Assembly: GCA_964371255.1 (NCBI GenBank) | Contig: CAYJKV010000003.1 | Location: 8,458 to 72,457 of the forward strand | Direction of reading: 5' to 3' | Length of the DNA stretch: 64,000 bases | Source: an uncultured Candidatus Saccharibacteria bacterium | GTDB lineage: Bacteria; Patescibacteriota; Andersenbacteria; UBA10190 | Translations under genes and position numbers: made by a program | Part shown: positions 24,657-62,689 of the stretch, piece by piece | How the letters are laid out: every line of letters begins with the position of its first letter | How positions within the stretch are numbered: position 1 is the stretch's first letter | Notes under the pieces: model-generated | What the model saw: only the letters and a program-made list of their open reading frames with translations | The model's database searches: none | What the model was told of the DNA's origin: nothing

Positions 24657-24867
24657 TTCCAAAAAGAAGGAATACGGGTAAATCCAATGCCCTTAGCATA
24701 ACACGACCAAGGGAGGAGAAAAATCCAAATGTCCAAATACTAATACTCAATGACCAACTGGTTGCGCAATTATATTACAGGTTTTGTCACTTTGGTATTT
24801 TGGATTTGGTTGGTCCCGAAGGGATCCCTTAGGGATCATTGGGATTTGGTCATTGGGATTTTTGCGT

Positions 24868-29557: not shown

Positions 29558-29574
29558 ATTGTAACTATAGTATT

Positions 29575-29998: not shown

Positions 29999-30031
29999 TA
30001 CGGAAAATCCGTAAAATTAAGCTGAGGCGTA

Positions 30032-31456: not shown

Positions 31457-31517
31457 CAATAGACAATAGAGTGAAGCGACTTCCCCAACAACTTAAGATG
31501 AGATATAAAGGGTACAC

Positions 31518-32664: not shown

Positions 32665-32777
32665 CAACAATGACCCAACCTACCTACATCAATTTGTGTT
32701 TCGAATTGACCTTCAATAAAAGCCTCAACACACGGAAAGGTGTGGGTACCTAACCCAAGTGGCCCGCATCTAATATA

Positions 32778-32803
32778 AAACCGGCATCAGCCGGTATTTT
32801 ATT
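32778..32803 (+). terminator. intrinsic terminator after the 277-aa gene
   Basis: AAACCGGCATCAGCCGGTATTTTATT. Confidence 0.6.
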
Positions 32804-32991
32804 AGATATGATACTAGTGGGATTCGAAGGGTATTCTAAAAACGTAAAATTGATTTACGTTTTTAGAAACCCTATCTGCGAAGGAGGAGCCAAACCTCAA
32901 GCGAAGCGAGTGCGAGGCGATGGGTGAGCAGGAAGCCCTCTCTTTGCAATAATAAGAGAGGCTGACCTTGCCTCCGCTGCTTTTAATTTTA

Positions 32992-36366: not shown

Positions 36367-36441
36367 CGAATATTTTTTAATGAATTACCTTCCCAGTATA
36401 GCTGATTATAAAGGCAATTCCACGGAATTACGAATTCAACT

Positions 36442-36686
36442 TAAAACGTAAAAAGCAAAATTAAAAGCAACGGTCTAAAGCTAAAAATAACCACTCAATT
36501 AAGCCCGTATTCAAAAATTGCATTTAACAATCTGTATATTATGAACATGTTATTTTCGCTAATTTTTATCCGTAGTCGCGTTTCTAATTTGAGATTTTTA
36601 GATTTCTAATTTGTTTCGGATTTCCAGATTTCGAATTTCGGATTTTAAAGTATCCCTTTGCTTTTTTCTCTTTACGTTTTACGTTC
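36442..36686. repeat. A-rich inverted-repeat pair of the GCGTAAAA family flanking the clpC/recX divergent promoter region
   Basis: Left arm TTAAAACGTAAAAAGCAAAAT (36442-36472). Right arm CTTTACGTTTTACGTTCTAA (36655-36686), which is its approximate reverse complement. Related pairs lie at 38659-38779 and 49805-49945. Confidence 0.5.
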
Positions 36687-36691
36687 TAATC

Positions 36692-37168
36692 ATGCCTCTT
36701 CCCAAACGTGCCGATCCATTCTACCAAGCTCAAGACATCCTCTCTCGGCGTGACCATTCCGAGTTTGAGTTACGAACCAAAATGCGCCGCAAACATTTCA
36801 CGCCAGCCCAGGTCGACGCCGTCGTCATCAGGCTTAAAAAAATCAATTTGCTTAACGATAGAAAATTCGCCGCCATGTTTATCGCGAATACCCTGCTTTT
36901 CAAACCAGTCGGACCGAAATATTTGAGCTATAAACTTAAGCAAAAAGGAATTAGATCCTCTCTGATTGAAGCCGCTTTGGCCGAAGCGTTCGTACCAGGT
37001 CGGGAAGCAGAACTCGCCCGTCAAGCCGCGACCGCATGGCGCCGCACCCATTATCCGAAGAATACCGACCACATCGAAATAAAAAAACATCAGCAGCGCT
37101 TAATTCGTATTCTTGTTTCCCGCGGCTTCTCTTTTTCCGCGATTGAATCTGCCACAACTAAAGGATAG
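36692..37168 (+). CDS. recX: regulatory protein RecX
   Basis: A 159-aa protein with a RecX-like repeated helical pattern (ELRTKMRRKHFTPAQVDAVVIRLKKINLLNDRKFAAMF...). ATG 36692 is taken as the start. Confidence 0.6.
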   Translation: MPLPKRADPFYQAQDILSRRDHSEFELRTKMRRKHFTPAQVDAVVIRLKKINLLNDRKFAAMFIANTLLFKPVGPKYLSYKLKQKGIRSSLIEAALAEAFVPGREAELARQAATAWRRTHYPKNTDHIEIKKHQQRLIRILVSRGFSFSAIESATTKG

Positions 37169-37329
37169 GGGACAAACCACACCCAAACCCCTCAGGTGTC
37201 GGAGTGGGTTCCGGACCAGTCAACTGGCTTTCCGAAGGGCTTCCTTCAATTTCCATGTACGCAACAATGGCACATTAGTGCGCTCCTCGAGTAATTTTGT
37301 TTTATAAGCGAATCTACGCCAGTAAAAGG

Positions 37330-37713
37330 CTAGTGCGCTTGCGCTTTGTTATGTATTTTTCTCTTCAGGTCATACACGTCCTGCTCCAGCCTCTCCACTC
37401 TCTCAGGTAAATCCTGCTGATAACGTACTCGCTCATCTAAACGCAATACCGAACGGTGAATCAATTTTAACTCCTGCATCATTTCTGCTCGTTCTTGTTT
37501 AGCGTCTCTGTTATCTAATTTTAAACCCAGGATATCACCCTTCATAACCTTAATATCTTTTTCTATTACATCAAACCGCTGGTCCACAGCATCAAACCTC
37601 TGGTCTATTGATGCGTACTTCTTTTCTGCTGTGGCATTGTGCTTGTCTACAACCCTCTCTAACCTTCGCAGATCCCCCTTGGTTGCCGGCTCGTTATCTC
37701 CTTTTTTAGACAT
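37330..37713 (-). CDS. hypothetical coiled-coil protein
   Basis: A 127-aa charged ORF with heptad-like content. No family recognised. Confidence 0.35.
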   Translation of the reverse strand: MSKKGDNEPATKGDLRRLERVVDKHNATAEKKYASIDQRFDAVDQRFDVIEKDIKVMKGDILGLKLDNRDAKQERAEMMQELKLIHRSVLRLDERVRYQQDLPERVERLEQDVYDLKRKIHNKAQAH

Positions 37714-37751
37714 AGCTAAATATTAACAAGATCTCTCACCTTTAGCCATTA

Positions 37752-38651
37752 CTATCTTGACTCTCTCAATCGTCGTATGCGATCTTCCACTGGCGGATGT
37801 GTCGCGAATAAAGTGCTCAGGCTCTTTCCTTTGAATGGATTGGCGATAAAAAGATGAGCCGTGGCATGCCCGGCAGTCTCTAACGGTGGGCCGCTGGAAA
37901 TTTTTTCGAGCGCCCGTGCCAAGCCCTCCGGATAACGGGTTAACAACGAGCCGGCCGAATCAGCCAAATATTCTCGTTGTCGGGAAACCGCCAGTTGAAT
38001 CAACTTCCCGATAATAGGCGATACGATGAGCAGGGTCAGACCCACAACGGCGAGTATCGCCCCCAGTCGATTATCGCTGCGATTATTATCCCGGCCTCTA
38101 AAACCGCCGCCCCAAAAAGAGACCCGCATGAACATGTCCGATAAAATAACCAGAAAGCCGACAAAAATAGCGACCAGAGTGGCAAACCGTATATCATAAT
38201 TTTTTACGTGTCCTAGTTCGTGCGCTATAACACCCTCTAGTTCTGATCGTTCTAATCTCTCTACCAGCCCCCGTGTCACGGCAATGGAGGCATGCTCGGG
38301 GTCTCGGCCCGTGGCGAAGGCGTTGAGAGCAGGGGAGTCAATGTAATATAACTTCGGCTTGGGCAGTCCCGCCGTTATCGCCAGATTCTCAACCATTCTG
38401 TTTAATTCAGGCGCCGCGTCCGGCGGCAGATTTACCGCGCGATTGGTGGCCAAAGCAATTTTATCTCCGGAGTAATAACCGATTAAGGATGAAGGGATGG
38501 CAAAAATGGCAGCGATAATTGGCAACACAAAATCCCCGCGTACATAGAACGAATACAAACCAACTACCCCGATTACGAGTCCTAACACTAATGTGATCAG
38601 AATAATCGAAGCCCGCTTATTGGCTTCAATTTGTTTATATAAATTGGGCAT
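37752..38651 (-). CDS. htpX: M48-family zinc metalloprotease HtpX
   Basis: HELGHVKNYD (HEXXH) with multiple TM helices. ATG 38651 (MPNLYKQ) is preferred as the start. Confidence 0.8.
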   Translation of the reverse strand: MPNLYKQIEANKRASIILITLVLGLVIGVVGLYSFYVRGDFVLPIIAAIFAIPSSLIGYYSGDKIALATNRAVNLPPDAAPELNRMVENLAITAGLPKPKLYYIDSPALNAFATGRDPEHASIAVTRGLVERLERSELEGVIAHELGHVKNYDIRFATLVAIFVGFLVILSDMFMRVSFWGGGFRGRDNNRSDNRLGAILAVVGLTLLIVSPIIGKLIQLAVSRQREYLADSAGSLLTRYPEGLARALEKISSGPPLETAGHATAHLFIANPFKGKSLSTLFATHPPVEDRIRRLRESR

Positions 38652-38658
38652 AATTTTA

Positions 38659-38779
38659 GCGTAAAGTTTAAAATGAAAAACGCAAACCAACAGTTCAAAA
38701 CTAAAATCAACACACCAATCAACTATACTTTACACTTTTGGTTATTGTTTTGCGCTTTTCGTTTTACGCTTTTATTTTG
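38659..38779. repeat. A-rich inverted-repeat pair (GCGTAAAA family) between the lemA stop and the htpX start
   Basis: Left arm GCGTAAAGTTTAAAATGAAAAACGCAAACC. The right arm GTTTTGCGCTTTTCGTTTTACGCTTTTATTTTG is its approximate reverse complement. Confidence 0.5.
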
Positions 38780-39335
38780 TATTGCCAAATTCCACTTTCG
38801 GTAGTTCTTTCTCGCTTTCGTCAGCGGCAAAAAATTCTTCGGCTTTGAATTTGAACAAGCTGGCAATAATATTTTTCGGCACTTGCTGGATGGCCGTATT
38901 GTAATCCTTCACGTTAGTGTTGTAGAACCGGCGGGCCGCCTGGATTTTGTTTTCTGTATCCGACAATTCCCTTTGCAATTCCAGGAAATTTGCATTGGCC
39001 TTCAAGTCCGGATAGGCTTCGGCCACCGCGAACAAACTTTTCAATGTCGATGACAACATATTTTCTGCCTTGGCTTGTTCCTCTGGCGTTGTTGCACCCA
39101 TGGCCTGGGCCCGTGCTTGCGTCACGTTTTCAAATGCTTCTCTTTCGTGCGTGGCGTAGCCCTTGACTGTCTCTACCAAATTTGGAATTAAGTTATACCG
39201 TCGCTTTAACTGGACATCAATGTCGCTCCACGCTTCTTTGACTTGATTGCGCTGTCGAATCAAGGCGTTATAAACCAACAACGCGTAAGCGGCTACGGCG
39301 ATAACAATTATTAGTAACCAAGTTCCCAAACTCAT
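38772..39335 (-). CDS. lemA: LemA-family protein
   Basis: N-terminal TM helix then LemA core [34 protein letters not shown]... Confidence 0.8.
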
Positions 39336-39414
39336 ATCACTTCTTATGGTAAAATAAATGCATTAATAATTCAACTCCTTCTTAATCTTCCATTACCAGG
39401 TTCACTTATTGTCT

Positions 39415-40446
39415 ATGGTCGCTTTTCACGGACAACCTCGCTCATTTCTCGGCATCAATCTAACCTCTACTCAGGTCAGTGTAGTGGAATTGATCAATCG
39501 GGGTCCGCGCATTGAGTTAGCCACTTATGCGTTAGCGGACTTACCCCCGGCTGCTCAGCCTGCCATTAACACGCATGACCCGCAGGCCACACAGCAGCTG
39601 GTCGCTTTTCTGGAACAGGTTTTTGAACAGGCGGCCTTATCCAGTGATGCGGCGATCTTCTCTTTATTTAGTCCCCATATTTTTTCCACCATTATGGAGT
39701 TTCCTGATATCGCAGACCAGGAACTCGCATCCGCCATCTATTCTAAAGCGCGTGACCTAGTACCAGCCGATCTTAACAATATGGTCATTACCGCCACCCG
39801 GCCGAATGAACATAAGCACCATGTGCCATGGCAGCAGCCGCAGCCCGCCACTGTCGTCTTATCACCCGCGCCAGCTATTGAGGCACCCGGCACCGGCACT
39901 GGACGTCCTGTGGCCGCCAGTAACTCTCGTTACCTTATTCATGCCATTCCTTTACCGACTCTCACCTGGTATCGGGAACTGGCCCGCGCTCTTCATCTAG
40001 AGCTCATCGCGCTGGAAGAAAATGTTTTTCCCATATCCCGCATCCACCCCGTCACAAATTCACATTGTACTTTCTTTATTCACACGGACAATAACATGGT
40101 CAATGTCTACGCGGCCAATCGTCAGTCTGCTTATTTAACCCGGACCATCGATTATAATAATCAAAAGCCTGACCCGACCAGTCTAGCGGACGAAATTGAG
40201 CGCACCATTGCTCGTCACGTACAGACTGGTTTTCCTGCCCCCTCCCAAGTGTATCTGCTCGGACGCGGTGCAAACCTCTCATCTTTACAGCAGGTTTTAT
40301 CCAGCGCCCTCTCCTGCCCGGTTAACATCAGCCAGCCGTTTAGCGGTCTGGCTTATCCGCAGGGAATTGAACAGAGCCTGTCTGTTCAAGGCCCGGCTTT
40401 TACGGTCGCCGTCGGTTTGGCCGAGCGCCAAATCAATATCATGTAG
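39415..40446 (+). CDS. pilM: type IV pilus assembly protein PilM-like (actin-fold)
   Basis: It lies at the head of the pilB-pilT-pilin-pilD operon. The ~340-aa size fits PilM, with N-terminal FLGINLTSTQVSVVEL. The motif conservation is weak. Confidence 0.5.
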   Translation: MVAFHGQPRSFLGINLTSTQVSVVELINRGPRIELATYALADLPPAAQPAINTHDPQATQQLVAFLEQVFEQAALSSDAAIFSLFSPHIFSTIMEFPDIADQELASAIYSKARDLVPADLNNMVITATRPNEHKHHVPWQQPQPATVVLSPAPAIEAPGTGTGRPVAASNSRYLIHAIPLPTLTWYRELARALHLELIALEENVFPISRIHPVTNSHCTFFIHTDNNMVNVYAANRQSAYLTRTIDYNNQKPDPTSLADEIERTIARHVQTGFPAPSQVYLLGRGANLSSLQQVLSSALSCPVNISQPFSGLAYPQGIEQSLSVQGPAFTVAVGLAERQINIM

Positions 40447-40479
40447 TATAATAACTGTATTCACCCTTATCCTTCCTTT

Positions 40480-42210
40480 TTGACTGTGGCTAATCCTAAA
40501 AATTCCTTAGAAAACTTGCTCTTGGAACACGGTTTACTTAAGCCGAATCAGTTGGAGTATGTGCAAGATAAAGCTCAAAGCCAAAAACAATCGATCACAG
40601 ATATCATTCGCGCTGAACAGTTAGTCTATCCAGAACCATTAGCGCAACTGACCGCCGAGTCCTTAGGTCTGCCTTATGTTGATTTACAATCCGTTCAGGT
40701 CGACCCCTCCGCCATGGCAGATATTTCCTCTCGCGCTGCCCACACCTATCGCTTCCTGGCTTTCGGCCAGACTGCCGATAAGCTGCAAGTGGCCCTGGCC
40801 GATCCAGCCGATTACCAGGCGCTGGAAGCGGTGCGCTTTATCGCTAAAAAACAAAATCGCAACCTAGAATTATACTGCGCCTCTGCGGAGGGGATTGAAC
40901 AAGTGTCCTCGCCTGAGCCGCGGCCAAATATTAATCAAGCCCTGCGAGATTTCGGCAAGGATATTCAGCAATCTTCCCGTTTGCCGGAAGACGAAACTAA
41001 ACTGCAGCAAACATTAGCGGAGGCACCGATCAGTAAGGTTTTTGCTGTCATTATGCGTCACGCCGTTGAAGGCCTGGCCTCTGACGTGCACATCGAACCT
41101 TTTGGCAATGAGTTACGCATTCGTTACCGGATTAACGGGGAACTGCATACTTCACTGCTGCTTTCCCATAACCTCCATCGCTCAATTGTCTCGCGTATAA
41201 AAATGTTAGCGAGTATGCAGGTCAGTTCCTCAAACGTACCGCAGGAAAGCCGCTTCACTTTTGCTTCCGGCCAGCAAGTCTACAGTGTCCGCGTCGCTAT
41301 CATGCCGACCATTCATGGCGAAAAAATCACTTTGCACTTGGTGGATACGACTAAAGCCGCTCCCTCCTTTGCCGAACTAGGTTTTGTGGGCTTGGCTTTG
41401 TCGCAGCTCAAAGAGCAGCTGCAAGACCCCAAGGGATTAATTATTGTGGCTGGACCGGACGGATCAGGAAAATCAACCACCATTAATGCTATTTTAACTT
41501 CGCTCAACGTGCCCTCAACCAGTATCGCGACCGTTGAGGAAACAATTGAATATGAGGTGCCCGGTATTACTCAAACGCAAATCAGCCCCGCCATGGAAAT
41601 TACTTATGAACGGGTGCTGCAAAATTTACTGCGACAAGACGTGGATATTATTATGGTTGAAGAAATCCGTTCGGCTAAAACGGGCCACCTGCTCACCAAG
41701 GGAGCATTGGCCGGCCGCCTGATGTTGTCGACCATTCATGCCCAGGACGCTTTGCGAACCATTCCTCAACTAATTGATTTAGGCATCAGTCCCTATGTTT
41801 TGTCGTCCAGTCTTCGCCTCATCATCGCGCAGCGCCTCGTCCCCAAACTGTGCCAGTTCTGTAAAAAACCAGTGCCCATCCCCAAATCCTTAACCAAAAC
41901 CGTCAGCGAAGAAATCAAACGCCTCCCTACCCAATTCGTCTCCGCGTATTCACTTGCTTCGCCGGCCACCTTCTATGCCAGCGCCGGTTGTCCGAAGTGC
42001 CACGAGCGAAAAACTTTTGGTCAGATCGCTATCTTCGACCTGGTTCGCATCTCCAAAGATCTGGCGCAGGCTATTGCTAACGGCGGAAACTATGAAGAGT
42101 TAACGACTATCGCCAGCAGCGCTGGTCACTTAACGTTAGCCCAGGATGGATTGCTGAAAGCGCTTCAAGGCTTGGTGCGTTATGCCGATGTTGTTCGTGT
42201 GACTGCCTAG
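40480..42210 (+). CDS. pilB: type IV pilus assembly ATPase PilB (GspE family)
   Basis: GspII_E N-terminal domain, Walker A AGPDGSGKSTT and a C-terminal tetracysteine motif (CQFC...CPKC). TTG start. Confidence 0.85.
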   Translation: MTVANPKNSLENLLLEHGLLKPNQLEYVQDKAQSQKQSITDIIRAEQLVYPEPLAQLTAESLGLPYVDLQSVQVDPSAMADISSRAAHTYRFLAFGQTADKLQVALADPADYQALEAVRFIAKKQNRNLELYCASAEGIEQVSSPEPRPNINQALRDFGKDIQQSSRLPEDETKLQQTLAEAPISKVFAVIMRHAVEGLASDVHIEPFGNELRIRYRINGELHTSLLLSHNLHRSIVSRIKMLASMQVSSSNVPQESRFTFASGQQVYSVRVAIMPTIHGEKITLHLVDTTKAAPSFAELGFVGLALSQLKEQLQDPKGLIIVAGPDGSGKSTTINAILTSLNVPSTSIATVEETIEYEVPGITQTQISPAMEITYERVLQNLLRQDVDIIMVEEIRSAKTGHLLTKGALAGRLMLSTIHAQDALRTIPQLIDLGISPYVLSSSLRLIIAQRLVPKLCQFCKKPVPIPKSLTKTVSEEIKRLPTQFVSAYSLASPATFYASAGCPKCHERKTFGQIAIFDLVRISKDLAQAIANGGNYEELTTIASSAGHLTLAQDGLLKALQGLVRYADVVRVTA

Positions 42211-42225
42211 GCATATAATACAATC

Positions 42226-42621
42226 ATGACTAAACCAAACACTTCAATTTTATTAGTCGAGGACGATTCCTTCATCTCTGGTATGTACCAGACCAAGCTC
42301 ACTAATCTGGGCTACCAGGTCGAGTTAATCGATGATGGGGAAGCGGCGGCAGTTAGACTAAAACAAGATCCGTTGCCTGACCTTCTATTACTGGATGTCG
42401 TGCTGCCGAAGAAGGATGGCTTTGAAATTTTAGAGGACCTGCGCCAGGAAGAGCGCACGGCCAAACTACCGGTTATCTTACTTACCAACTTAGGCCAGAA
42501 GCCTGATGTCGAACGGGGCATCAAGCTGGGCGCCGACGACTATATTATTAAAGCCCACTACACGCCGACCGAAGTAGTGGAAAAAATTACTAAAGTACTC
42601 TCCGAACGCACCGCCCAATAA
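42226..42621 (+). CDS. stand-alone response-regulator receiver (CheY-like) protein
   Basis: LLVEDD...LLLLDVVLPKKDGFEIL...K fits the REC domain with phospho-acceptor Asp. 131 aa. Confidence 0.8.
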   Translation: MTKPNTSILLVEDDSFISGMYQTKLTNLGYQVELIDDGEAAAVRLKQDPLPDLLLLDVVLPKKDGFEILEDLRQEERTAKLPVILLTNLGQKPDVERGIKLGADDYIIKAHYTPTEVVEKITKVLSERTAQ

Positions 42622-42662
42622 TGTTTATCTGATGTGCTTTATAAAATAGGAGGCTGGTTCAC

Positions 42663-43721
42663 ATGGATAAATTAAACGACCTTTTAGCCGAAGCCAAAGC
42701 CGCTGGCGCGTCTGATGTACACCTTGCGCCGAATCGCCCGCCGTATTTTCGTGTTGATGGCCAGCTGCTCAAAGCGGCCGACGCCGCCCTCACCGACGAT
42801 CACCTCAAGACGGTGATTGATGTATTGCTTAAAAACAACTCTAAATCACAACAAGAGTTGGACACCAACCAACAGACTGATTGTTCGTATTCTTTACCAG
42901 ACAATACCCGTTTTCGTGTTAACGCATTTTATCGCACTGGACATTTTGCGGTCGCTTTGCGGTTGATCAGTGCCAAGTTAAAAACCATCGAGGAACTTAA
43001 CCTGCCCGGGGGAATTCTTGAGTTTGCCGAGTTGCGCCAGGGTTTTTTACTCGTCACCGGTCCGGCGGGGGAAGGAAAATCAACCACTTTAGCTGCTCTA
43101 GTTAATTACATCAACCAAACGCGCAGCGAACATATTATTACTATCGAAGACCCCATTGAGTATTTATTTACTGAAGTGAAGTCCATTATCGACCAACGCG
43201 AGATCGGCCGTGATGCCGTTTCTTTTCCTGCCGCCATCCGCGCCACCCTCCGCCAGGATCCGGACGTTATTCTGATCGGTGAACTGCGCGACCGAGAATC
43301 TATGCAAACGGCCCTGACCTTGGCGGAAACAGGTCACTTGGTCATGGCCTCTCTCCATACCAACGATGCCGCCCAAACCATCGAACGGATTATCGACATT
43401 TTTCCCGCCAGCCAGCAATCGCAGATCCGTTCGCAATTGGCCGCCTCTTTGTCCGGCGTCATTACGCAGCGGTTAATCCCCACCGGTAAAGGCGGGCGCT
43501 TGCCGGCGGTCGGCATTATGCTGGCGACCACGGCAATCCGCAACGCCATTCGCGAGGACAAAGCTCACCAGATTGAAGGCATGATTCAAACCAGCCAGGA
43601 ATCCGGCATGCAAACATTGGACAAAAGTATTAACGATATGATCGCCGTCAATCTCATCACTAAAGAAGCGGCCCAACCGTATTTAACTCCCGAGATCTCT
43701 TACGCTAAAAATAAAAGTTGA
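42663..43721 (+). CDS. pilT: twitching-motility / pilus retraction ATPase PilT
   Basis: Walker A TGPAGEGKSTTLAALVNYIN and His box GHLVMASLHTNDAAQTIERI. 352 aa. Confidence 0.85.
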   Translation: MDKLNDLLAEAKAAGASDVHLAPNRPPYFRVDGQLLKAADAALTDDHLKTVIDVLLKNNSKSQQELDTNQQTDCSYSLPDNTRFRVNAFYRTGHFAVALRLISAKLKTIEELNLPGGILEFAELRQGFLLVTGPAGEGKSTTLAALVNYINQTRSEHIITIEDPIEYLFTEVKSIIDQREIGRDAVSFPAAIRATLRQDPDVILIGELRDRESMQTALTLAETGHLVMASLHTNDAAQTIERIIDIFPASQQSQIRSQLAASLSGVITQRLIPTGKGGRLPAVGIMLATTAIRNAIREDKAHQIEGMIQTSQESGMQTLDKSINDMIAVNLITKEAAQPYLTPEISYAKNKS

Positions 43722-43843
43722 TGTCTAAGCCCCCGCGTCTGCTGGTTACGCTTGTTAATTAAAATATTCCAGTATGCTACAATCAACACAGGTCGTATGT
43801 GGATAAAAAACAAGCTAATTTCTTTGAGAGGAGGTGAGGGTAT

Positions 43844-44305
43844 ATGAAGAAGAATAAAGGTTTCACCCTCATTGAGTTACTAGTTGTCATCGCTATTATT
43901 GGTATCTTGGCCGCCTTAGTCTTGGTCGCCCTGGGCAACGCCCGCGACAAAGCCAACGACGCGCGCATTAAAGCTAATATTGGACAGCTGCGCACTTTGG
44001 CTGAAATCATCTACGATGCAGCCGGGTCAAGCTACAACAACGGTACTATTACCGTAGCCGGTTGTTTTGCAGGACCAACGACTGCTAACTGTGGCAACGC
44101 TACTACCGCATCTTCTGTTACTACACTGCGTGCTGATACTGTCGCCGCTAATGCTAGCGCTGCGATCACTTCCACGGATACAGCCTCTGCTTTTTGCGTC
44201 ATGGCAACGATGCTGTCCGGTCAAGAAGTCTGCGTTGACAGTACTGGTGTCACAAGAACAGCTGCAGCTGGCACTTGTGTTGCCGGTGTATGTGCCGGGA
44301 CATAA
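43844..44305 (+). CDS. pilA: type IV pilin (major pilin candidate)
   Basis: Class III leader MKKNKG|[18 protein letters not shown] and C-terminal Cys pairs. A strong RBS GAGGAGGTGAGGG precedes the gene and a terminator follows it. Confidence 0.85.
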
Positions 44306-44330
44306 ACGTAAGTACGTAAGCTAAGAACAA

Positions 44331-44364
44331 ACTAGTCGCCTTCCAATGGCGACTAGTTTTTTTA
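44331..44364 (+). terminator. intrinsic terminator after pilin gene 1
   Basis: ACTAGTCGCC-TTCCAAT-GGCGACTAGT followed by TTTTTTT. Confidence 0.7.
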
Positions 44365-44386
44365 ATCTAATTTATCGTGTGTTATA

Positions 44387-44860
44387 ATGTGCTCAATCCA
44401 TCCTATGCCCAGCGGAATAAATCCTTCTACTCACCATAAAACTCACGGCTTCACCCTCATTGAATTGCTGGTAGTCATCGCTATTATCGGTATCCTAGCC
44501 TCGTTGGTTGCTGCGGCCACTATTAGCGCCCGGCACAAAGCGGATGATACCAAAATCAAGAACGATGTTCGACAGGCGCGCTGGTTAGCCGAAATTGTTT
44601 ATAACACCAATAACAACGATTTCACGGACTGGTCGACCAACTCGCAAATCACTGCCGATTTGGATATTTTAGTGGCCGATATTGAGGACGTTCATGATGA
44701 CGCTCACACTGTCACGATTGGTGATACTGATATGCAGACTTTCTGCGTCAGTGCTCCAATGAAAAGTGATGTCAATCAGCATTACTGCATCGATGCCAGC
44801 CGTGAAATTCACATCACAGATAGTCCCTGCGAGGTTGATGCTCCTCACGTGTGTCCTTAA
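44387..44860 (+). CDS. type IV pilin-like protein 2 (minor pilin candidate)
   Basis: HG|[19 protein letters not shown] prepilin motif. The leader length is uncertain and an alternative ATG lies at 44405. C-terminal Cys residues are present. Confidence 0.75.
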   Translation: MCSIHPMPSGINPSTHHKTHGFTLIELLVVIAIIGILASLVAAATISARHKADDTKIKNDVRQARWLAEIVYNTNNNDFTDWSTNSQITADLDILVADIEDVHDDAHTVTIGDTDMQTFCVSAPMKSDVNQHYCIDASREIHITDSPCEVDAPHVCP

Positions 44861-45708
44861 TTATTCCAATTAGCGCCATCTTCGGGGCTGCCTTAGGCAG
44901 TTTTTTAAATGTTGTTATCCTGCGCTATCCAACCAGACCGTTAACCGGCCGCTCCCATTGTCCGCGCTGTCATCGCCAGCTCACCGCTTGGGATTTAATC
45001 CCCGTTCTATCCTGGATCATATTACGCGGACAATGTCGGCACTGCCATACGCCAATTTCCATCCAATATCCAGTAGTCGAACTCCTGAGCGCCGTCGCGG
45101 CCGTTCTCCTCACTCGCTCCGCTATTTTTTACCAGGTTAACCCCCTATTAGTCACGCTGGAGTTTTTGGTGGTCCTTACCCTAATGGTCTTATTCGCCAT
45201 CGATCTGCGTACCATGTTGCTGCCCGATACATTCATCTTTATCCTAACCGCCCTTGTGCTCCTGGTTATTTTTTCTCATGTCTTGCCGGTCCTTTCCCTT
45301 CAAAATTACCAACCATCTTTTAGCTCCGATCACAGCTTGTCCTTATTTAATAAAATAAACCTCGAACCACCATCGGCCTTTCGCGCCAGTCTTTATTCTG
45401 CCCTCAGCGGTGCCTTCCTGGGAGCAGGATTACTCTTGCTTCTCTGGCTTCTGACCTCAAAACAGGGGATAGGCTTTGGGGATGTTAAGCTGATGGTTCC
45501 CTTGGGGTTGCTGTTCGGGCCTGTTAATACCATCCTGCTTCTCTTTGTGGCGTTTATCTGCGGCGGTTTTGTTGGCACCTACTTGCTTGTCACCAAACAA
45601 GCCACCCTAAAAACCGCCGTCCCCTTTGGACCATTTTTAGCCGGAGCAGCAATTATATTTATCCTCTTTCCACGCATTCCAACGTATTTGTTGTCGTTGA
45701 TAATATAA
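44851..45708 (+). CDS. pilD: prepilin peptidase PilD (A24 family)
   Basis: N-terminal CPRCHRQL...CRHCHTPI zinc motif then a polytopic membrane peptidase domain. GTG start overlaps pilin 2. Confidence 0.8.
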   Translation: MSLIIPISAIFGAALGSFLNVVILRYPTRPLTGRSHCPRCHRQLTAWDLIPVLSWIILRGQCRHCHTPISIQYPVVELLSAVAAVLLTRSAIFYQVNPLLVTLEFLVVLTLMVLFAIDLRTMLLPDTFIFILTALVLLVIFSHVLPVLSLQNYQPSFSSDHSLSLFNKINLEPPSAFRASLYSALSGAFLGAGLLLLLWLLTSKQGIGFGDVKLMVPLGLLFGPVNTILLLFVAFICGGFVGTYLLVTKQATLKTAVPFGPFLAGAAIIFILFPRIPTYLLSLII

Positions 45709-45769
45709 TTACATTAAATCCAAAGACCAACGATGTGATTAATTACGATTCCGCCATTGACTAGACTGA

Positions 45770-47869
<2,100 letters not shown>

Positions 47870-48011
47870 GTAAAAAAAATGTCAAAATCCAATTACAAAT
47901 GAAATCCAAAATCCAAATATTCAAAACTGCTCTTTTCCAAAGCGCCCACTTTAATGATCAAAAGATCAAGCTGATTTTTGACATTTACCATTGATTTAAC
48001 ATTTGGATTTT

Positions 48012-48308
48012 ATGCAATACATTTCTTCCTCTGAAGTAAAACGCATCGCTAGCCTCTCGCGTCTCCAATTATCCAACGCCGATGTTAAACAAGCCACGAA
48101 AGATTTGGGCAACGTGCTGGATCATTTTTCCCAAATACAAGCTATCGACACATCTAACGTCCCCACCTCTGACGACGTCACCGGTTTAAGCAATATTAGC
48201 CGCGTCGATCAGGCCGTGGATGATTTATTGTGTTCCACCCAGTCCTTGCTCGACAATGCGCCGAAGACTTATCAAGGACAATTCAAAGTTAAAGCCATCT
48301 TTTCTTAA
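48012..48308 (+). CDS. gatC: Asp/Glu-tRNA amidotransferase subunit C
   Basis: ISSSEVKRIASLSRLQLSNADVKQ is typical of GatC. It lies immediately upstream of gatA. ATG 48012 is preferred. Confidence 0.8.
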   Translation: MQYISSSEVKRIASLSRLQLSNADVKQATKDLGNVLDHFSQIQAIDTSNVPTSDDVTGLSNISRVDQAVDDLLCSTQSLLDNAPKTYQGQFKVKAIFS

Positions 48309-48310
48309 TT

Positions 48311-49879
48311 ATGGCTCCTCCACAAACCATTATTGAAGCCGCTAACGCGATCCGTAGCCGTGATATATCTGCTACTGAAATAATCGAGACCTCGTTACGC
48401 AGCATTGAACAATGGGAACCGCATGTGCACGCCTTCTTGGAAATATTTGCCGATACTGCCCGCCAGCAAGCCGCTGCCTTAGACTCCTCAAAACCGGGGA
48501 GTAATCAGCCGCTGGCCGGCATTCCCATTGCCATTAAAGACGTGATTTGTACCACTGAGGGGCACACCACTGCGGGATCAAAAATTCTACAGCACTTTCG
48601 ATCGCCCTACGAAGCCACCGTTATTAAGCGACTCCGTCATGCCGGTGCGATTCTGATGGGCAAAGCCAATCAGGACGAATTTGCCATGGGAGCCAGTAAT
48701 GAATTTTCTGCTTACGGTCCCGCGTATAATCCTTGGGATACCAGCCGTGTTACCGGTGGCAGCAGCGGTGGATCAGCGGCTAGTGTATCTTGCGGTGAAG
48801 TACTGGGCTCACTGGGTACGGACACGGGCGGGTCAGTCCGTCAGCCGGCCAGTTTTTGCAGTGTCGTTGGACTAAAACCTACCTATGGCCGTGTTAGTCG
48901 CTTTGGTGTCGTCGCTTATGCTAGTAGCTTGGATCAAGTCGGCCCCTTCGCCCGTACGGTACAGGACTGTGCTTTGTTGTTCGAGACTATTGCCGGACCG
49001 GACAAGCTCGACGCGACAACTTCTCCGCAGCTGGTTGGTCAATACGTCCAAGCTTGTGGCCGGGACATAAAAGGCCTGCGCGTCGGCTTGCCAGCTGAAT
49101 ATTTTACTAAGGAAGTTGATCCGGCAGTAGTGTCAATCGTTCAGACCGCCATTAAACAGCTAGCCAAATTAGGGGCGGTTATCAAAGAGATATCCTTGCC
49201 TTTAACCAAATATGCCGTTCCGACATATTACGTCATCGTTAAGTCCGAAGCTTCAACCAACCTCGCCAGATTTGATGGTTTGCGCTATGGCCACTTGGCT
49301 GTTGCCGCTAATGATTTACTCGAACAATACTTTGTCGGTCGCGGTAAATATTTTGGGCCAGAAGTCAAACGGTCCATCCTGATGGGCACCTTTACCTTAT
49401 CCTCTGGCTATATTGATGCCTGGTACAAACAAGCCAGTAAAGTTCGGACGTTAATTAGGAATGAATTTAATGAACTGTTTAAGGAGGTAGATGTTATTGC
49501 CGGACCGGTTTCTCCTGAACCGGCTTTCCCGGTCGGGCAGAAAGCCGATGATCCTCTGGCTATGTATCTGGCGGACATGTTAACCGACCCGGCCAGCGTC
49601 GCCGGTCTGCCGGCTATCTCCGTACCCTGCGGCTTCAGTTCGGTTGCCGCTCTGGAAGAGGACAGTCATCCTGTCCAACTGCCGGTTGGTCTTCAACTGA
49701 TCGCCCCCCACTTCATGGAAGAGCGCCTATTCCAGGTTGCCCATGCCTATGAACAGTCCACTGCTTGGCATAAACAAAAACCAGTTTTACCCGCTAGGGT
49801 AAATGGAAACACGAATAAAAAAGCGAAAAGTGTAAAGCGTAAAATGAAAAACAACAGCGTAAAACCTAAAGCACTGTAG
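48311..49879 (+). CDS. gatA: Asp/Glu-tRNA amidotransferase subunit A (amidase signature) with Lys-rich C-terminal extension
   Basis: Amidase signature GGSSGGSAASV and a Ser-cisSer-Lys triad region. The last ~35 aa (NTNKKAKSVKRKMKNNSVKPKAL) are encoded by an A-rich repeat. Confidence 0.9.
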   Translation: MAPPQTIIEAANAIRSRDISATEIIETSLRSIEQWEPHVHAFLEIFADTARQQAAALDSSKPGSNQPLAGIPIAIKDVICTTEGHTTAGSKILQHFRSPYEATVIKRLRHAGAILMGKANQDEFAMGASNEFSAYGPAYNPWDTSRVTGGSSGGSAASVSCGEVLGSLGTDTGGSVRQPASFCSVVGLKPTYGRVSRFGVVAYASSLDQVGPFARTVQDCALLFETIAGPDKLDATTSPQLVGQYVQACGRDIKGLRVGLPAEYFTKEVDPAVVSIVQTAIKQLAKLGAVIKEISLPLTKYAVPTYYVIVKSEASTNLARFDGLRYGHLAVAANDLLEQYFVGRGKYFGPEVKRSILMGTFTLSSGYIDAWYKQASKVRTLIRNEFNELFKEVDVIAGPVSPEPAFPVGQKADDPLAMYLADMLTDPASVAGLPAISVPCGFSSVAALEEDSHPVQLPVGLQLIAPHFMEERLFQVAHAYEQSTAWHKQKPVLPARVNGNTNKKAKSVKRKMKNNSVKPKAL

Positions 49880-49945
49880 TAACACGCTCGGAGTCATTTT
49901 AATTTTTTAGTTGTTGCTTTGCGCTTTTTGCTTTACATTTTGCGA
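49805..49945. repeat. A-rich inverted-repeat pair (GCGTAAAA family) spanning the gatA stop and the gatA/gpmI convergent junction
   Basis: Arm D AAAAAGCGAAAAGTGTAAAGCGTAAAATGAAAAACAACAGCGTAAAACC lies inside the gatA 3' coding region. Arm E GCTTTGCGCTTTTTGCTTTACATTTTGCGATTT lies downstream. Confidence 0.5.
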
Positions 49946-49946
49946 T

Positions 49947-51542
49947 TTATTGCAACGAGCCAAGAAGTGATACGCCTGTCATGCTGCTCGGTTTCGGCAA
50001 TCGCAAAACATCCAACACTGTTGGTGCTACATCGGCTAATACCCCAATCGGAGACATTAAGCTGGTAATGACTTCACTATCGCTCTTCTTGGTCGTGCGG
50101 CGCAGCTCTTCTCTGACATAATAAAAAGGCACGGGATTTTTAGTATGCTCAGTAAACTGTTGGTGCGTTTCTTTCTCTCCCACCTCTTCGGCTTTGCCGT
50201 GATCGGCTGTCACGATCATGGCGCCGCCTTGCTGGTTAACACTGTTATAAATTTTACCTAAACACTCATCCACACAGGCGCACGCTTTAACAGTGGCATC
50301 AAAGTCCCCGGTATGGCCAACCATATCGGCATTCGCAAAATTCACGAAATATACATCATATGCACCGCGCGCTAGCTCGTCTGTTATGCGTTTGGTTATT
50401 ACGTCTGCCTCCATGCGCGGCTTTTGAGCCCAATCTTTCACGCCTGACGAGTGTACTAAATCATGTACTTCGCCGGCGAAGGGTTCTTCATGGCCTACGT
50501 TCAAATAATATGTGATATGAGCATATTTCTCTGTTTCAGCAATGTGCAGCTGCATTAATCCGGCCTCGGACACCACCCGGGCTAATGGATACTCGGCAAT
50601 TTCTTCACGATATGCGGCTGGACAGGGGAGTGCCTTATCGTACTCATTCAAGGAAGCAAAATATAAATTTTTTAATGTCTTCGCCGGCCACCCGACCTTA
50701 TCGGGAGCCACAAAGGAGGCAGTCAGCTGCCGGGCACGATCGGGTCGGAAGTTAAAGAAGATTACCGCGTCATTGTCCTTGATTAGCGCAATCGGCGCGC
50801 CGCCCGAAGTAATAACAGTCGTCGGAATTTTTTCATCAATGAATCCTTTCGCGTGCGCTTGCGCTATCGCTACCTCTGGCGAGGGTGCTCCATCTGGCCT
50901 CAGCCCTCCCGTTAACATATCAAAAGTCGCCTGGGTCCGGTCCCAGTTCTCATTACGATCCATAGCGTACAACCTCCCCGTGACTGACGCGATCGTCCCC
51001 ACTCCCCAATGCCCTATGGCTTCCTCCAGTTTTCTTAAATAGAATGGCGAGCTCTTCGGTGGCGTGTCGCGGCCATCAGTAAACATATGAATGTACACCC
51101 GGTCCCGGAATTTCTCCTGAGCCAGCATCTGCAGCAAGGCAATCAGATGATTCATATGCGCGTGCACGCCACCCGGTGAAACCAGCCCCATTAAATGCAA
51201 GTCGCTGTTATTATCGCGTGCGTGCTTAATCGCGTTTAGTAACACTTCATTTTGAAAAAAGGAGCCGTCATCAATCGCTTGATCAATATCGGCCATAATC
51301 TGATACTGCACGCAACCCGCTCCAATATTGCGATGTCCCGTTTCTGAATTTCCAGCCACGCCGCTCGGTAAGCCGACCTCTAATCCAGACGCTACCAAGG
51401 ATGCGCTGGGATAGTACCAAGAAAACATATTCAAAGTCGGGGTCGGCGCGGCATCAATCGCGTTACCTTTGCCTTTTAAACTTAAACCCCAGCCATCTAG
51501 AACTATCACCACTAATGGTCTGGGTCGGGGCAAAGTATTCAT
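49947..51542 (-). CDS. gpmI: 2,3-bisphosphoglycerate-independent phosphoglycerate mutase
   Basis: N-terminal LVVIVLDGWG and overall iPGM architecture. 531 aa. Confidence 0.9.
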   Translation of the reverse strand: MNTLPRPRPLVVIVLDGWGLSLKGKGNAIDAAPTPTLNMFSWYYPSASLVASGLEVGLPSGVAGNSETGHRNIGAGCVQYQIMADIDQAIDDGSFFQNEVLLNAIKHARDNNSDLHLMGLVSPGGVHAHMNHLIALLQMLAQEKFRDRVYIHMFTDGRDTPPKSSPFYLRKLEEAIGHWGVGTIASVTGRLYAMDRNENWDRTQATFDMLTGGLRPDGAPSPEVAIAQAHAKGFIDEKIPTTVITSGGAPIALIKDNDAVIFFNFRPDRARQLTASFVAPDKVGWPAKTLKNLYFASLNEYDKALPCPAAYREEIAEYPLARVVSEAGLMQLHIAETEKYAHITYYLNVGHEEPFAGEVHDLVHSSGVKDWAQKPRMEADVITKRITDELARGAYDVYFVNFANADMVGHTGDFDATVKACACVDECLGKIYNSVNQQGGAMIVTADHGKAEEVGEKETHQQFTEHTKNPVPFYYVREELRRTTKKSDSEVITSLMSPIGVLADVAPTVLDVLRLPKPSSMTGVSLLGSLQ

Positions 51543-52204
51543 TCTCTAAAAATACCATGCCAACCTAGACCAGAAAACAGATAGTCGGTTTCGAGTTTTG
51601 AATTTCTGATTTGTCTAGGGTTTCTCGATTTCTCCCTAGGGGACCACATGGGGGGATTTCGGATTTTATGTAGCGGGGGTCGGAATTGCACCGACGATTT
51701 CCTGGTTATGAGCCAGGCGAGATACTACTTCTCCACCCCGCGTTATATTGGTCAGTCCGAGTCACCTAAACGTATACTCTCAAACTGATATTTCTGTTTC
51801 TTTACTGCCTCCCGTCTTAAAAAATCGCTTAACGAATATTTATAACGCTATCTGGTTGCAGTGTGCCCCATTGTACGCTCAACCAATTAAGCATGCAACT
51901 GTCAATGATTATTTACAAAATGGTGGTAAAAAACCTTGCGCCTCTCCTCTGCTTCTAGGCATGGTTATATTGACCGGTGGGACATTAATAGGGGGGAATA
52001 TTTACACACAGATCACGCCCCGAATAAACCTACTGCGTCCTTAAGAGCTACCGCACCCAGTGCGAGCTTTACATCCCCGCTCATGCGGGGTTGTTCTTTA
52101 TTATAAAATTGGCTACATTTTCTCTGCCTCTTCTTTTATGATGAATAGTATCGTCAGCTTAATGTTTTTAGGCCACAAGGCTTTTTGAACATTTAGCCTC
52201 GGTG

Positions 52205-52281: not shown

Positions 52282-52363
52282 CCCGCTACCACGTAAAATC
52301 TGCACCCGCCTTTGGCGGGATGCAGATCACGTGGCAAGCCGCGCCAGCAGATTGTCACGTGAA

Positions 52364-52401
52364 AGCCCCATAAGAGGCGTATGCCTCATGGGGCTTTTTT
52401 T
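52364..52401 (+). terminator. intrinsic terminator downstream of the tRNA
   Basis: AGCCCCATAAGAGGCGTATGCCTCATGGGGCT followed by TTTTTTT. Confidence 0.65.
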
Positions 52402-52450
52402 ACGTGAGCCCCGTGATCGCGGAGTTTACGACGCGATTTTACGTACACTC

Positions 52451-62504: not shown

Positions 62505-62689
62505 GGCACACCCTCGGTCCAGCCACCCCCCCCAACACTAATGTTAAAATCAAAATTTCCCTTCAGGCATTCCTTTGGGACCATTCAATGCCAAATCTTA
62601 ATACCTAAATCCACGGATCAGCTATATTTATTCTACATCAGGCTCTTGGCATTTATTTAACATTGTAATTTGGAATTTTGGATTTTTTT

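What the first reader, a model, noticed from the sequence alone, without database searches (positions are those of the whole stretch)
36442..49945. Dispersed A-rich inverted-repeat family (core GCGTAAAA / TTTTACGC) at three gene junctions, one copy supplying a Lys-rich tail to GatA
Three loci (36442-36686, 38659-38779, 49805-49945) each contain a left arm rich in AAAACG(T/C)AAAA / GAAAAACGCAAA and a right arm that is its approximate reverse complement. All three share the subsequences TAAAATGAAAAAC, GTAAAGC and TTGCGCTTTT. They sit at a divergent promoter region, between lemA and htpX, and across the convergent gatA/gpmI junction. In the last case one arm lies inside the gatA reading frame and encodes ...NTNKKAKSVKRKMKNNSVKPKAL, extending GatA ~35 aa beyond where amidase-family homology ends. 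This looks like a genome-specific MITE/REP-like element that can form long AT-rich hairpins and occasionally invades coding 3' ends.
Basis: seen in the sequence. Interest (0 to 1): 0.5.

Follow-up and report, generated by a model that had tools for sequence, protein, structure and literature searches.

The report
Old inverted-repeat element family in Andersenbacteria
Three gene junctions in this uncultured groundwater-type bacterium carry copies of an old, diverged 120-250 bp inverted-repeat element, and one gene (gatA) lost its stop codon and now reads into one copy, gaining a lysine-rich tail. This is a new family of a known kind of bacterial repeat, not a new kind of system.

Summary
All three loci are real inverted repeats with an A-rich left arm and a T-rich right arm, and they align as whole units ('G family').

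The source is a Candidatus Andersenbacteria (CPR) metagenome contig. The family is not genome-specific. G-type arms also sit beside ligA and gatC in two other Andersenbacteria species, and two solo arms lie just outside the window.

A second, commoner family (C: AAATCC/TTTGACATTTG words) fills other spacers. In relatives it occupies the very spacers that hold G copies here. Other relatives have a terminator-like hairpin or no spacer at all.

The GatA tail is unique among 120 homologues. The ancestral TAA is still present but out of frame, so the ORF ran into the T-poor arm.

Arm words are kept between species whose four-fold sites are saturated (31% identity), which implies upkeep or selection.

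No target-site duplication, transposase, near-identical copies or strain polymorphism was found. Predicted RNA hairpins are moderate (z -2.6 to -3.2) with little covariation.

Best reading: a REP/REPIN/MITE-like family, co-transcribed as AU-rich hairpins at gene boundaries. Mobility and function are inferred, not shown.

The parts
36438..36486 (.). G-family copy 1, A-rich left arm. It lies 72-120 nt upstream of the clpB-type gene, whose ATG is at 36366 on the minus strand.
   Evidence: Inverted-repeat arms. Aligns to the family consensus in A1. nhmmer E 4e-7.
36500..36640 (.). About 130 nt of extra sequence inside copy 1. It includes a T-tract array (GATTTC/GGATTT words, about 36576-36646) of the C'-type seen after gatA in relatives.
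   Evidence: Appears as an insertion relative to the other three full elements in alignment A1. The words match L027/L028.
36641..36689 (.). G-family copy 1, T-rich right arm. It ends a few nt before the recX ATG (36692).
   Evidence: nhmmer E 8e-7.
38657..38706 (.). G-family copy 2, A-rich left arm. On the minus strand it is the T-rich arm, ending 8 nt before the htpX ATG at 38651.
   Evidence: nhmmer E 1e-8.
38727..38776 (.). G-family copy 2, T-rich right arm. On the minus strand the A-rich arm starts right at the lemA stop (38772-38774).
   Evidence: RNA fold z -3.2 (+) and -2.9 (-).
49796..49879 (+). gatA read-through extension: 27 codons (RVNGNTNKKAKSVKRKMKNNSVKPKAL) plus a TAG stop.
   Evidence: Translation. 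None of the 120 best homologues covers it. The closest relatives stop at the aligned position of 49795.
49799..49816 (+). Relic of the start of an older C'-type arm (gTAAATggaaacacGAATA). It contains the ancestral stop TAA (49800-49802), now out of frame.
   Evidence: Aligns with cTAAATCCGAAATCCGAATA, which follows gatA in L027/L028. After the conserved CCA there are 16 nt here, against 12 or 18 in relatives.
49817..49871 (.). G-family copy 3, A-rich left arm, lying wholly inside the extended gatA ORF.
   Evidence: nhmmer E 4e-8. 40/49 identical to the L026 gatC-upstream arm.
49896..49951 (.). G-family copy 3, T-rich right arm, ending at the gpmI stop (49947-49949, minus strand).
   Evidence: RNA fold z -2.6 on the + strand and -1.0 on the - strand.
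32834..32868 (.). Perfect 15-bp hairpin TTCTAAAAACGTAAA/TTTACGTTTTTAGAA carrying the G-type core word. It may be a minimal relative of the family.
   Evidence: Repeat I21; sequence. Not detected by the arm HMM.
24714..24868 (.). C-family element (AAATCC / GGATTT words with a GC core, CCCGAAGGGATCCCTTAGGG), between an unknown 524-aa gene and ddl.
   Evidence: (z 26 against the L016 ligA-spacer element).
45780..45850 (.). C-family T-rich array upstream of ligA. It is orthologous to the C elements in L016 and L032.
47868..48011 (.). C-family element filling the ligA>gatC spacer from stop codon to start codon.
   Evidence: Its arms are 24/28 and 25/28 identical to the L016 orthologue, while four-fold sites are 31% identical.
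62538..62689 (.). C-family element upstream of the thymidylate-kinase gene.

Best explanation
The three loci are copies of an old, diverged family of small non-coding inverted-repeat elements (the 'G family'). Each has about 55-nt arms built from ~7-nt (G)CG(T)AAAA words, with the A-rich arm on the left and the T-rich arm on the right. The family belongs to the same broad kind as REP/REPIN, ERIC and MITE-like repeats and is shared by several Candidatus Andersenbacteria species.

Copies arose by duplication or insertion of whole units into the very short spacers of these compact genomes. As a result they run from the stop codon of one gene to within a few bases of the next start codon. Sometimes they sit next to or inside elements of a second family (C).

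The elements are transcribed with their neighbours. The A-rich and U-rich arms can pair into long, sloppy AU-rich hairpins. These most likely act as 3'-end or intercistronic structures (transcript-end protection, weak termination, or processing sites), and the arm words are kept by selection or by continuing turnover.

The GatA tail is a by-product. A frame-shifting indel just before the old TAA removed the stop, and because the A-rich arm contains few T the frame stayed open for 27 more codons.

Shown: family membership, distribution, the relic stop and the uniqueness of the tail. Inferred: copy-and-paste spread, transcription, and hairpin function.
For: Unit-level alignment of loc1, loc2, loc3 and L026 2778-2938 over about 55 nt on each side. 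Arms are 64-84% identical, and the best pairs are between species at non-orthologous junctions. The order of sub-motifs is conserved beyond motif content.

Extra G arms occur just outside the window on the same genome (L030 573-613; L029 about 12738-12790) and next to the ligA ATG in L026 and L032.

Orthologous spacers differ between relatives:
- lemA>htpX holds a G element here, a C element in L016, another A/T repeat in L023, a hairpin plus T7 in L025, L026 and L032, and a GC-rich repeat in L024.
- gatA><gpmI holds G here, C in L016, C' in L027/L028, and nothing in L018/L007.
- ligA>gatC has no spacer in L024/L025.

Nesting or adjacency of the two families is seen at 49799-49816, 36500-36640 and L032 3123-3315. 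The contigs L027 and L028 end inside such elements.

Four-fold sites between the window and L016 are 31% identical, yet arms keep 24-25/28 identity at orthologous sites and 19-23/28 at non-orthologous sites.

Predicted hairpins: loc2 z -3.2/-2.9, loc3 + strand z -2.6.

Tail.
Against: No consistent target-site duplication. No transposase or Y1/RAYT-type Pfam hit among the ORFs of about 82 kb of this genome. No copy pair is above about 84% identity, so there is no sign of recent movement. Contigs that are 99.9% identical show no presence/absence difference.

The consensus RNA structure is weak (-8 kcal/mol) and shows little covariation. Locus 1 folds no better than shuffles (z -1.4 to -2.0), and the minus strand of locus 3 is at z -1.0.

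Much of the arm similarity comes from shared short words. Orthologous arms are only slightly more alike than non-orthologous ones.

Locus 1 lies between divergent genes, where a 3'-end hairpin has no obvious role. The genome also has many canonical terminators, so these elements are not its general terminator.
Confidence: 0.55

Rival explanations
1. The elements are not mobile at all. They are selected, locally evolving gene-boundary modules: arrays of ~7-nt A-tract words and their complements, read by a lineage-specific RNA- or DNA-binding factor, or acting as AU-rich bidirectional terminator or processing hairpins. Resemblance between loci reflects shared functional words rather than common descent of copies.
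For: Arm words are kept across species whose neutral sites are saturated (31% at four-fold sites). Non-orthologous arms are nearly as similar as orthologous ones. Arms abut stop and start codons precisely. Relatives carry a hairpin plus T-run at the same lemA>htpX position. In the ligA>gatC element the conserved words occur in the order X Y ... X' Y', which does not fit one simple hairpin. There is no target-site duplication, no transposase and no young copies.
Against: Whole units align in a fixed order of sub-motifs across non-orthologous loci and species. One spacer can hold G, C, another repeat type or nothing in related species. The two families are found nested or adjacent. Solo arms exist. 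Locus 1 sits between divergent genes.
Confidence: 0.25
2. The feature works at the DNA level. The phased A-tract and T-tract arrays form bent or cruciform-prone DNA, or are operator arrays for a nucleoid protein or a stress regulator. Two of the three copies lie upstream of the heat-shock genes clpB and htpX.
For: Loci 1 and 2 flank a ClpB-type chaperone gene and HtpX. At clpB the arm lies just upstream of a TATAAT box, in the position where an UP element would sit. The arms consist of regular A3-5 runs.
Against: Other copies sit at gatA/gpmI, ligA, gatC, gatB and tsaD, which are not stress genes. The period is about 7 nt, not the 10-11 nt needed for in-phase bending. The positions relative to start codons are inconsistent: 8-9 nt at htpX and recX but 72 nt at clpB. 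No match to the CIRCE, CtsR or HAIR operator consensus is visible; that comparison was made from memory only.
Confidence: 0.1
3. The resemblance is chance similarity between A-rich and T-rich low-complexity spacers.
For: The octamer GCGTAAAA and the heptamer GTAAAGC are not enriched in the window. A-rich sequences align well by chance.
Against: There is a clear two-family block structure, with cross-family z near 0 and within-family z up to 12.7 (G) and 26 (C). A motif-permutation control is still exceeded. A 13-mer is shared by loci 2 and 3 (0.29 expected). The same consensus is recovered in other species.
Confidence: 0.03

Closest known systems
REP / REPIN elements (repetitive extragenic palindromes and their inverted doublets, maintained by RAYT transposases) of Escherichia and Pseudomonas. 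Comparison from my own knowledge of the family.
   Same: Both are dispersed and extragenic, made of two inverted arms around a short spacer, sit right after stop codons or between cistrons, lack target-site duplications, persist for a long time within a lineage, and have diverged copies.
   Different: The arms here are about 55 nt, AT-rich and built from ~7-nt A-tract words, not 20-40-nt GC-rich palindromes with a conserved 5' GTAG. No RAYT gene was seen in about 82 kb. Copy number is unknown.
ERIC/IRU and Correia (CREE) elements (MITE review PMC10969869)
   Same: Both are imperfect palindromes of about 100-200 bp in transcribed intergenic regions that fold in the mRNA. Known effects are RNase III or RNase E processing, promoter donation and altered transcript stability. 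They lie immediately upstream or downstream of genes.
   Different: Correia elements have 26-bp terminal repeats, a TA duplication and an IHF site. None of these features was found here. No experimental data exist for this lineage.
Pneumococcal BOX / RUP / SPRITE elements (PMC10969869)
   Same: Several unrelated small repeat families coexist, cluster in the same spacers and insert into one another. SPRITE resembles a terminator.
   Different: There is no sequence relationship. The families here share one design (A-rich arm, then T-rich arm).
Rickettsia palindromic elements, RPE (PMC10969869)
   Same: A palindromic repeat of about 150 bp ends up being translated as part of a housekeeping protein.
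   Different: RPEs insert in frame inside genes and encode a conserved peptide. Here the ORF ran into a downstream element after losing its stop, only at the C-terminus, and in one gene only.
Bidirectional intrinsic terminators (A-tract, GC-rich stem-loop, T-tract)
   Same: Both have A-rich-then-T-rich polarity that reads the same on both strands. Both occur at convergent and co-directional gene ends. Relatives carry a hairpin plus T7 at the same lemA>htpX position.
   Different: There is no short GC-rich stem followed by a T-run at any of the three loci. The arms are 28-54 nt and imperfect. One copy lies between divergent genes.

Membership tests
Prokaryotic MITE | Small (about 50-800 bp) non-coding unit with terminal inverted repeats | tested here: met
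   Units are 120-250 bp. Arms are 28-54 nt and 72-82% complementary. No ORF lies within a unit.
Prokaryotic MITE | Target-site duplication flanking each copy | tested here: not met
   Allowing +/-6 nt on each boundary, only 3-5-nt matches were found, each different and at different offsets in the four full copies.
Prokaryotic MITE | Many dispersed copies in one genome | tested here: inconclusive
   About 82 kb of this genome holds 3 full copies, 2 solo arms and 1 mini hairpin. The rest of the genome was not available.
Prokaryotic MITE | Terminal repeats shared with an autonomous IS or transposase partner | not testable with these tools
   No transposase Pfam hit among the window ORFs tested or the annotated neighbours.
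Prokaryotic MITE | Filled versus empty sites between related genomes | tested here: inconclusive
   Between species the answer is yes: gatA/gpmI abut in L018/L007, and ligA/gatC abut in L024/L025. Between 99.9%-identical contigs there is no difference. No sharp excision or insertion boundary was seen.
REP/REPIN | Short GC-rich imperfect palindrome with a conserved 5' tetranucleotide (GTAG) | tested here: not met
   The arms are AT-rich and about 55 nt. The consensus outer end is A(G/A)CGTAAAACG.
REP/REPIN | An associated RAYT (Y1 transposase) gene in the genome | not testable with these tools
   None found in about 82 kb. The genome is incomplete.
Intrinsic (Rho-independent) terminator | Stem of at least 5 bp with at least 3 G-C pairs, a 3-8-nt loop, and a T-run directly after the stem | tested here: not met
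   The scan of 36000-52000 finds none at the three loci. It does find canonical terminators elsewhere in that range (e.g. 44329-44359).
Rickettsia palindromic element (in-frame coding insertion) | Element inserted in frame inside an ORF, with host coding sequence on both sides | tested here: not met
   The element lies downstream of the relic stop TAA (49800-49802). Only the C-terminus is affected.
Any Rfam RNA family | A match at the family's gathering score | tested here: not met
   Only tRNAs were reported in the window.

The most novel reading that the evidence does not exclude
The A-arm/T-arm cassettes are not selfish DNA. They are a selected form of gene punctuation specific to Andersenbacteria. 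At least three word families (G: CGTAAAA; C: AAATCC/TGTCAAA; a third with TTGAAAATTGA) share one design, with about 7-nt A-tract words on one side and their complements on the other. The words are recognised by a dedicated factor, or pair as AU-rich bidirectional end or processing hairpins. They are kept in roughly 1-Mb genomes across divergence that has saturated neutral sites, and they replace canonical terminators at some junctions.
Probability: 0.2. Interest if true: 0.6.

Novelty: new member of a known kind. Interest (0 to 1): 0.35.

Why it matters
Small dispersed repeats have hardly been described in CPR/Patescibacteria; a full-text search for MITEs together with Patescibacteria returned nothing relevant. 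These streamlined genomes are not expected to carry junk. Yet here several repeat families fill whole intergenic spacers and keep their words across species whose neutral sites are saturated. That makes them candidates for lineage-specific RNA-end or regulatory signals.

There are also practical consequences. The elements break assemblies (two contigs end inside them). They can mislead gene callers. And they can lengthen proteins, as in the 27-aa basic tail on GatA, a tRNA-dependent enzyme subunit. If the elements prove to be selected punctuation rather than selfish repeats, they would give a first handle on how transcripts are delimited in an uncultured phylum.

Tried and rejected
1. Exact-word enrichment. 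GCGTAAAA, GTAAAGC, CGTAAAACG and TTGCGCTTTT are not enriched in the window, so the family cannot be defined by one word.

2. Rfam. No family matches at the loci.

3. Canonical terminator or sigma-70 promoter at the loci. None was found. The TTGACA inside C-type arms has no matching -10 box at 16-18 nt (by eye).

4. RNA covariation. RNAalifold on four full copies gives only 18 pairs at -8 kcal/mol, with a covariation term that does not favour the structure.

5. Strand asymmetry of folding as a sign of RNA-level selection. The z-scores are similar on both strands for locus 2 and mixed for locus 3, so this is uninformative.

6. Left/right arm asymmetry as proof of unit duplication. Local z-scores hinted at it, but global identities did not bear it out.

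7. Target-site duplications. None found.

8. Strain polymorphism. L001-L005 are 99.9-100% identical and have no differences inside the elements.

9. The idea that the T-arm replaces a Shine-Dalgarno site. Rejected, because about 45 of 55 genes in the window lack one anyway.

10. The heat-shock operator idea (clpB, htpX). Rejected, because other copies flank gatA, ligA, gatC, gatB and tsaD.

11. The DNA-uptake-sequence idea (type IV pilus genes are nearby). The words are degenerate, confined to spacers and arranged in arrays, unlike DUS/USS.

12. Literature searches for CPR repeats or terminators. Nothing specific was found.


Full report
**What is at the coordinates**

All three loci are inverted repeats with an A-rich left arm and a T-rich right arm:
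- 36438-36467 / 36656-36685 (30 nt, 80% complementary, 188 nt apart)
- 38663-38690 / 38745-38772 (28 nt, 82%)
- 49817-49870 / 49898-49951 (54 nt, 72%)

Loci 3 and 1 are the 1st and 3rd longest inverted repeats with arms no more than 400 nt apart in the window.

Pfam confirms the neighbouring genes:
- ClpB-type AAA+ (33808-36366, minus) and RecX (36692-37168, plus), divergent
- LemA (38772-39335, minus) followed by an M48 HtpX peptidase (37752-38651, minus)
- GatC and GatA (48012-49879, plus) converging on a cofactor-independent phosphoglycerate mutase (49947-51542, minus)

The left arm of locus 3 is translated as the end of GatA.

Some details in the finding are wrong. TAAAATGAAAAAC and TTGCGCTTTT occur only in loci 2 and 3. 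GTAAAGC occurs only in locus 3. GCGTAAAA is not enriched in the window and is absent from locus 1.

**Where the sequence comes from**

The window is part of a 173-kb metagenome contig (ENA ERZ13693046 NODE_190). The closest named genome is Candidatus Andersenbacteria RIFCSPHIGHO2_02_FULL_46_16 (GatA 79% identical). This is a CPR/Patescibacteria lineage.

Gene order around the loci is conserved in many relatives: gatA-gatC-ligA-pil genes | lemA-htpX | recX | clpB. That allowed a spacer-by-spacer comparison.

**Is it a family, and how large?**

Local alignment of arms, all turned A-rich side up, gives two clean blocks.

The G family holds the six arms of the finding plus two arms in L026. L026 is another species, with HtpX 81% and GatA about 60% identical.

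The C family uses the words AAATCC, TGTCAAA and CAAATG. It has members in this window (24714-24868, 45780-45850, 47868-48011, 62538-62689) and at four places in 21 kb of L016.

Cross-family z-scores are near zero. Within-family scores reach 12.7 (G) and 26 (C).

The four full G elements (loc1, loc2, loc3, L026 2778-2938) align as whole units over about 55 nt at each end. The left-arm consensus is AAATAAGCGTAAAACGTAAAACGAAAAATGAAAAACAACAGTnTAAAACTAAAAAC. Locus 1 carries about 130 nt of extra internal sequence.

Arms are 64-84% identical to one another. Each arm is a string of ~7-nt tokens of the type (G)CG(T)AAAA. For that reason I permuted the tokens as a control. Real pairs still score higher (mean z 2.1; up to 5.1). 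So the order of sub-motifs is shared, although much of the raw similarity is word content.

An HMM of the arms finds no further copy inside the window. It does find two solo G-type arms just outside it on the same genome, upstream of tsaD and of gatB. It also finds a G-type T-arm abutting the ligA start in L032, as in L026.

A perfect 15-bp hairpin with the G core sits at 32834-32868.

The family is therefore real and is not genome-specific. In the roughly 82 kb sampled it occurs about once per 15-20 kb.

**Comparative picture of the same spacers**

- lemA>htpX: G element here; C-type array in L016; a different A/T inverted repeat with an AAAACGCAA/TTGCGTTTT core in L023; a short hairpin followed by T7 in L025, L026 and L032; a GC-rich repeat in L024. 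The consensus scan detects the hairpin only in L026.
- gatA><gpmI: G here; C in L016; a C' variant (AAATCCGAAATCCGAATA...) in L027 and L028; the two genes abut or overlap in L018/L007.
- ligA>gatC: C element here and in L016 (orthologous); a solo G-type T-arm in L026; no spacer at all in L024 and L025.
- pilD>ligA: C here, in L016 and in L032; in L032 and L026 a G-type arm also lies directly against the ligA ATG.

The elements typically begin at the stop codon of the upstream gene and end within 0-9 nt of the next ATG.

The two families occur adjacent or nested. A C' relic lies at 49799-49816, next to the G copy. A C'-type T-tract array lies inside locus 1. A C element is followed directly by a G arm in L032.

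The short contigs L027 and L028 both end inside such elements, as assemblies do at multi-copy repeats.

**The GatA tail**

The 120 best homologues are 441-507 aa long, against 522 here. None covers the tail. All end within about a dozen residues after ...AYEQxxxW(H/W)K....

In L016, L027 and L028 the stop codon (TAA) is followed at once by the A-rich arm.

The window keeps the homologous gTAAATggaaacacGAATA, but the TAA (49800-49802) is out of frame. After the conserved CCA codon there are 16 nt here, against 12 or 18 in the relatives. So a frame-shifting indel removed the stop. The frame then stayed open through the T-poor arm to the TAG at 49877-49879, adding RVNGNTNKKAKSVKRKMKNNSVKPKAL.

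The extended protein is identical in 15 contigs read, so it is not an assembly error. Whether the basic tail does anything is unknown.

**Structure and function**

As RNA, locus 2 folds better than dinucleotide shuffles on both strands (z -3.2 and -2.9). Locus 3 does so on the plus strand (z -2.6) but not on the minus strand (z -1.0).

Shuffles that preserve the A-rich/T-rich blocks give z -3.2 to -3.8 for locus 2 (both strands) and for the plus strand of locus 3. Locus 1 is weak at -1.4 to -2.0.

Several pairing registers are possible. The consensus structure of four copies is weak and shows little covariation.

None of the loci matches a canonical terminator or an Rfam family. The genome does have many canonical terminators elsewhere.

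The strongest hint of function is evolutionary. Four-fold degenerate sites of gatA, gatC and ligA are only 31% identical between the window and L016, which means they are saturated. Yet the arms of the orthologous ligA>gatC element keep 24/28 and 25/28 identity while the loop has diverged. Non-orthologous arms of the same family still reach 19-23/28.

The words are therefore being maintained, either by selection or by continuing turnover from conserved sources. These are not decaying relics.

**Mobility**

Points in favour:
- Dispersed units at non-orthologous sites in several species
- Different occupants of the same spacer in related species
- Nesting of the two families
- Solo arms
- Contig breaks inside elements

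Points against, or missing:
- No target-site duplication
- No transposase or Y1-type gene among the ORFs of about 82 kb
- No young copies
- No polymorphism among near-identical contigs

This profile resembles REP/REPIN and ERIC-type repeats more than classical MITEs with target-site duplications. The defining REP features (a GC-rich palindrome, GTAG, a RAYT gene) are either not met or not testable here.

The review PMC10969869 documents the analogies used:
- RNase III cutting at Correia repeats
- ERIC effects on 3' transcript stability
- Terminator-like SPRITE elements
- Pneumococcal repeat families inserting into one another
- RPEs translated within proteins

**Verdict**

This is a new family, together with a commoner sister family, of small inverted-repeat elements in Andersenbacteria. 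It is old and diverged, is shared between species, and fills the short spacers of these compact genomes. The elements probably act in transcripts as AU-rich hairpins at gene boundaries.

The GatA tail is a lineage-specific read-through after stop loss. It is not an insertion into the gene.

Interest is moderate to low. It would rise if the cassettes proved to be selected punctuation signals rather than selfish repeats.

Noticed in passing
window 24714-24868, 45780-45850, 47868-48011, 62538-62689; L016 1-100, 7356-7539, 9526-9701, 11489-11621: A second and commoner inverted-repeat family (C: AAATCC / TGTCAAA / CAAATG words, some copies with a GC core CCCTAAGGGATCCCTTCGGG). It has the same A-rich-left/T-rich-right design and fills whole spacers from stop to start codon. 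Its arms are conserved between species whose four-fold sites are saturated.
   Followed up: partly
L023 5165-5267; L032 about 11560-11662; L029 about 12600-12740 (upstream of gatB, same genome as the window): A third word type (TTTTCAATTTTCAA / TTGAAAATTGAGA arrays) occupies spacers in the same clade. This suggests at least three related 'dialects' of A/T-tract repeats.
   Followed up: no
window 49786-49803 (minus strand): A small hairpin, TTTACCCTAGCGGGTAAA, followed by ACTGGTTTTTGTTT on the minus strand, lying inside the end of gatA. L016 has a different 7-bp hairpin (ATGCCGG/CCGGCAT) plus TTTGTTTG at the same place. This may be the gpmI terminator, which would put the repeat element inside the gpmI 3' UTR. 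L027/L028 have no such hairpin.
   Followed up: partly
window 125-141, 197-213, 877-893: Three copies of a GC-rich palindrome, TACACCCCGGGGGTGTA (0-1 mismatch; 0.12 expected by chance), flank the CYTH-domain gene at 257-865. This looks like another small repeat family, of the classical REP-like GC-rich type.
   Followed up: partly
L026 11920-12400: The recX<>clpB spacer of this relative holds two tandem units of about 190-200 nt. Each is bounded by near-perfect terminal inverted repeats (AGGCATCACAAAATAATAAC...) and has an internal palindrome. These look like classical MITEs and are unrelated to the G and C families.
   Followed up: no
window, all gene starts: Only about 10 of 55 called genes have a recognisable Shine-Dalgarno motif. 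Many have a TATA(A/C)T hexamer 7-13 nt upstream of the ATG, which suggests widespread leaderless or very short-leader mRNAs.
   Followed up: partly
window 28732-31604: This stretch looks like a mobile island: an IrrE-like M78 peptidase (28732-29271), a Bro-N domain protein (30257-31096) and small unknown ORFs. Next to it is a cluster of three tRNA genes, two of which (31190-31278 minus, 31518-31604 plus) form a 27-nt, 89% inverted repeat.
   Followed up: no
window 52388-52789: A GIY-YIG nuclease ORF lies between two tRNA genes. In the near-identical contig L002 exactly this stretch (52290-52770) is a run of N (a scaffold gap), so its presence there cannot be judged. It may be a strain-variable homing-endonuclease-like insertion.
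   Followed up: no
window 32665-32991: This 327-nt convergent spacer contains a canonical bidirectional terminator (32768-32807), the perfect G-core hairpin (32834-32868) and about 120 nt of GC-rich sequence with no ORF and no Rfam hit. An undescribed small RNA is possible.
   Followed up: no
L027 1796-1951; L028 1671-1718: Both short Logan contigs from related species end inside the repeat element that follows gatA. This is consistent with the elements being multi-copy and breaking assemblies.
   Followed up: no
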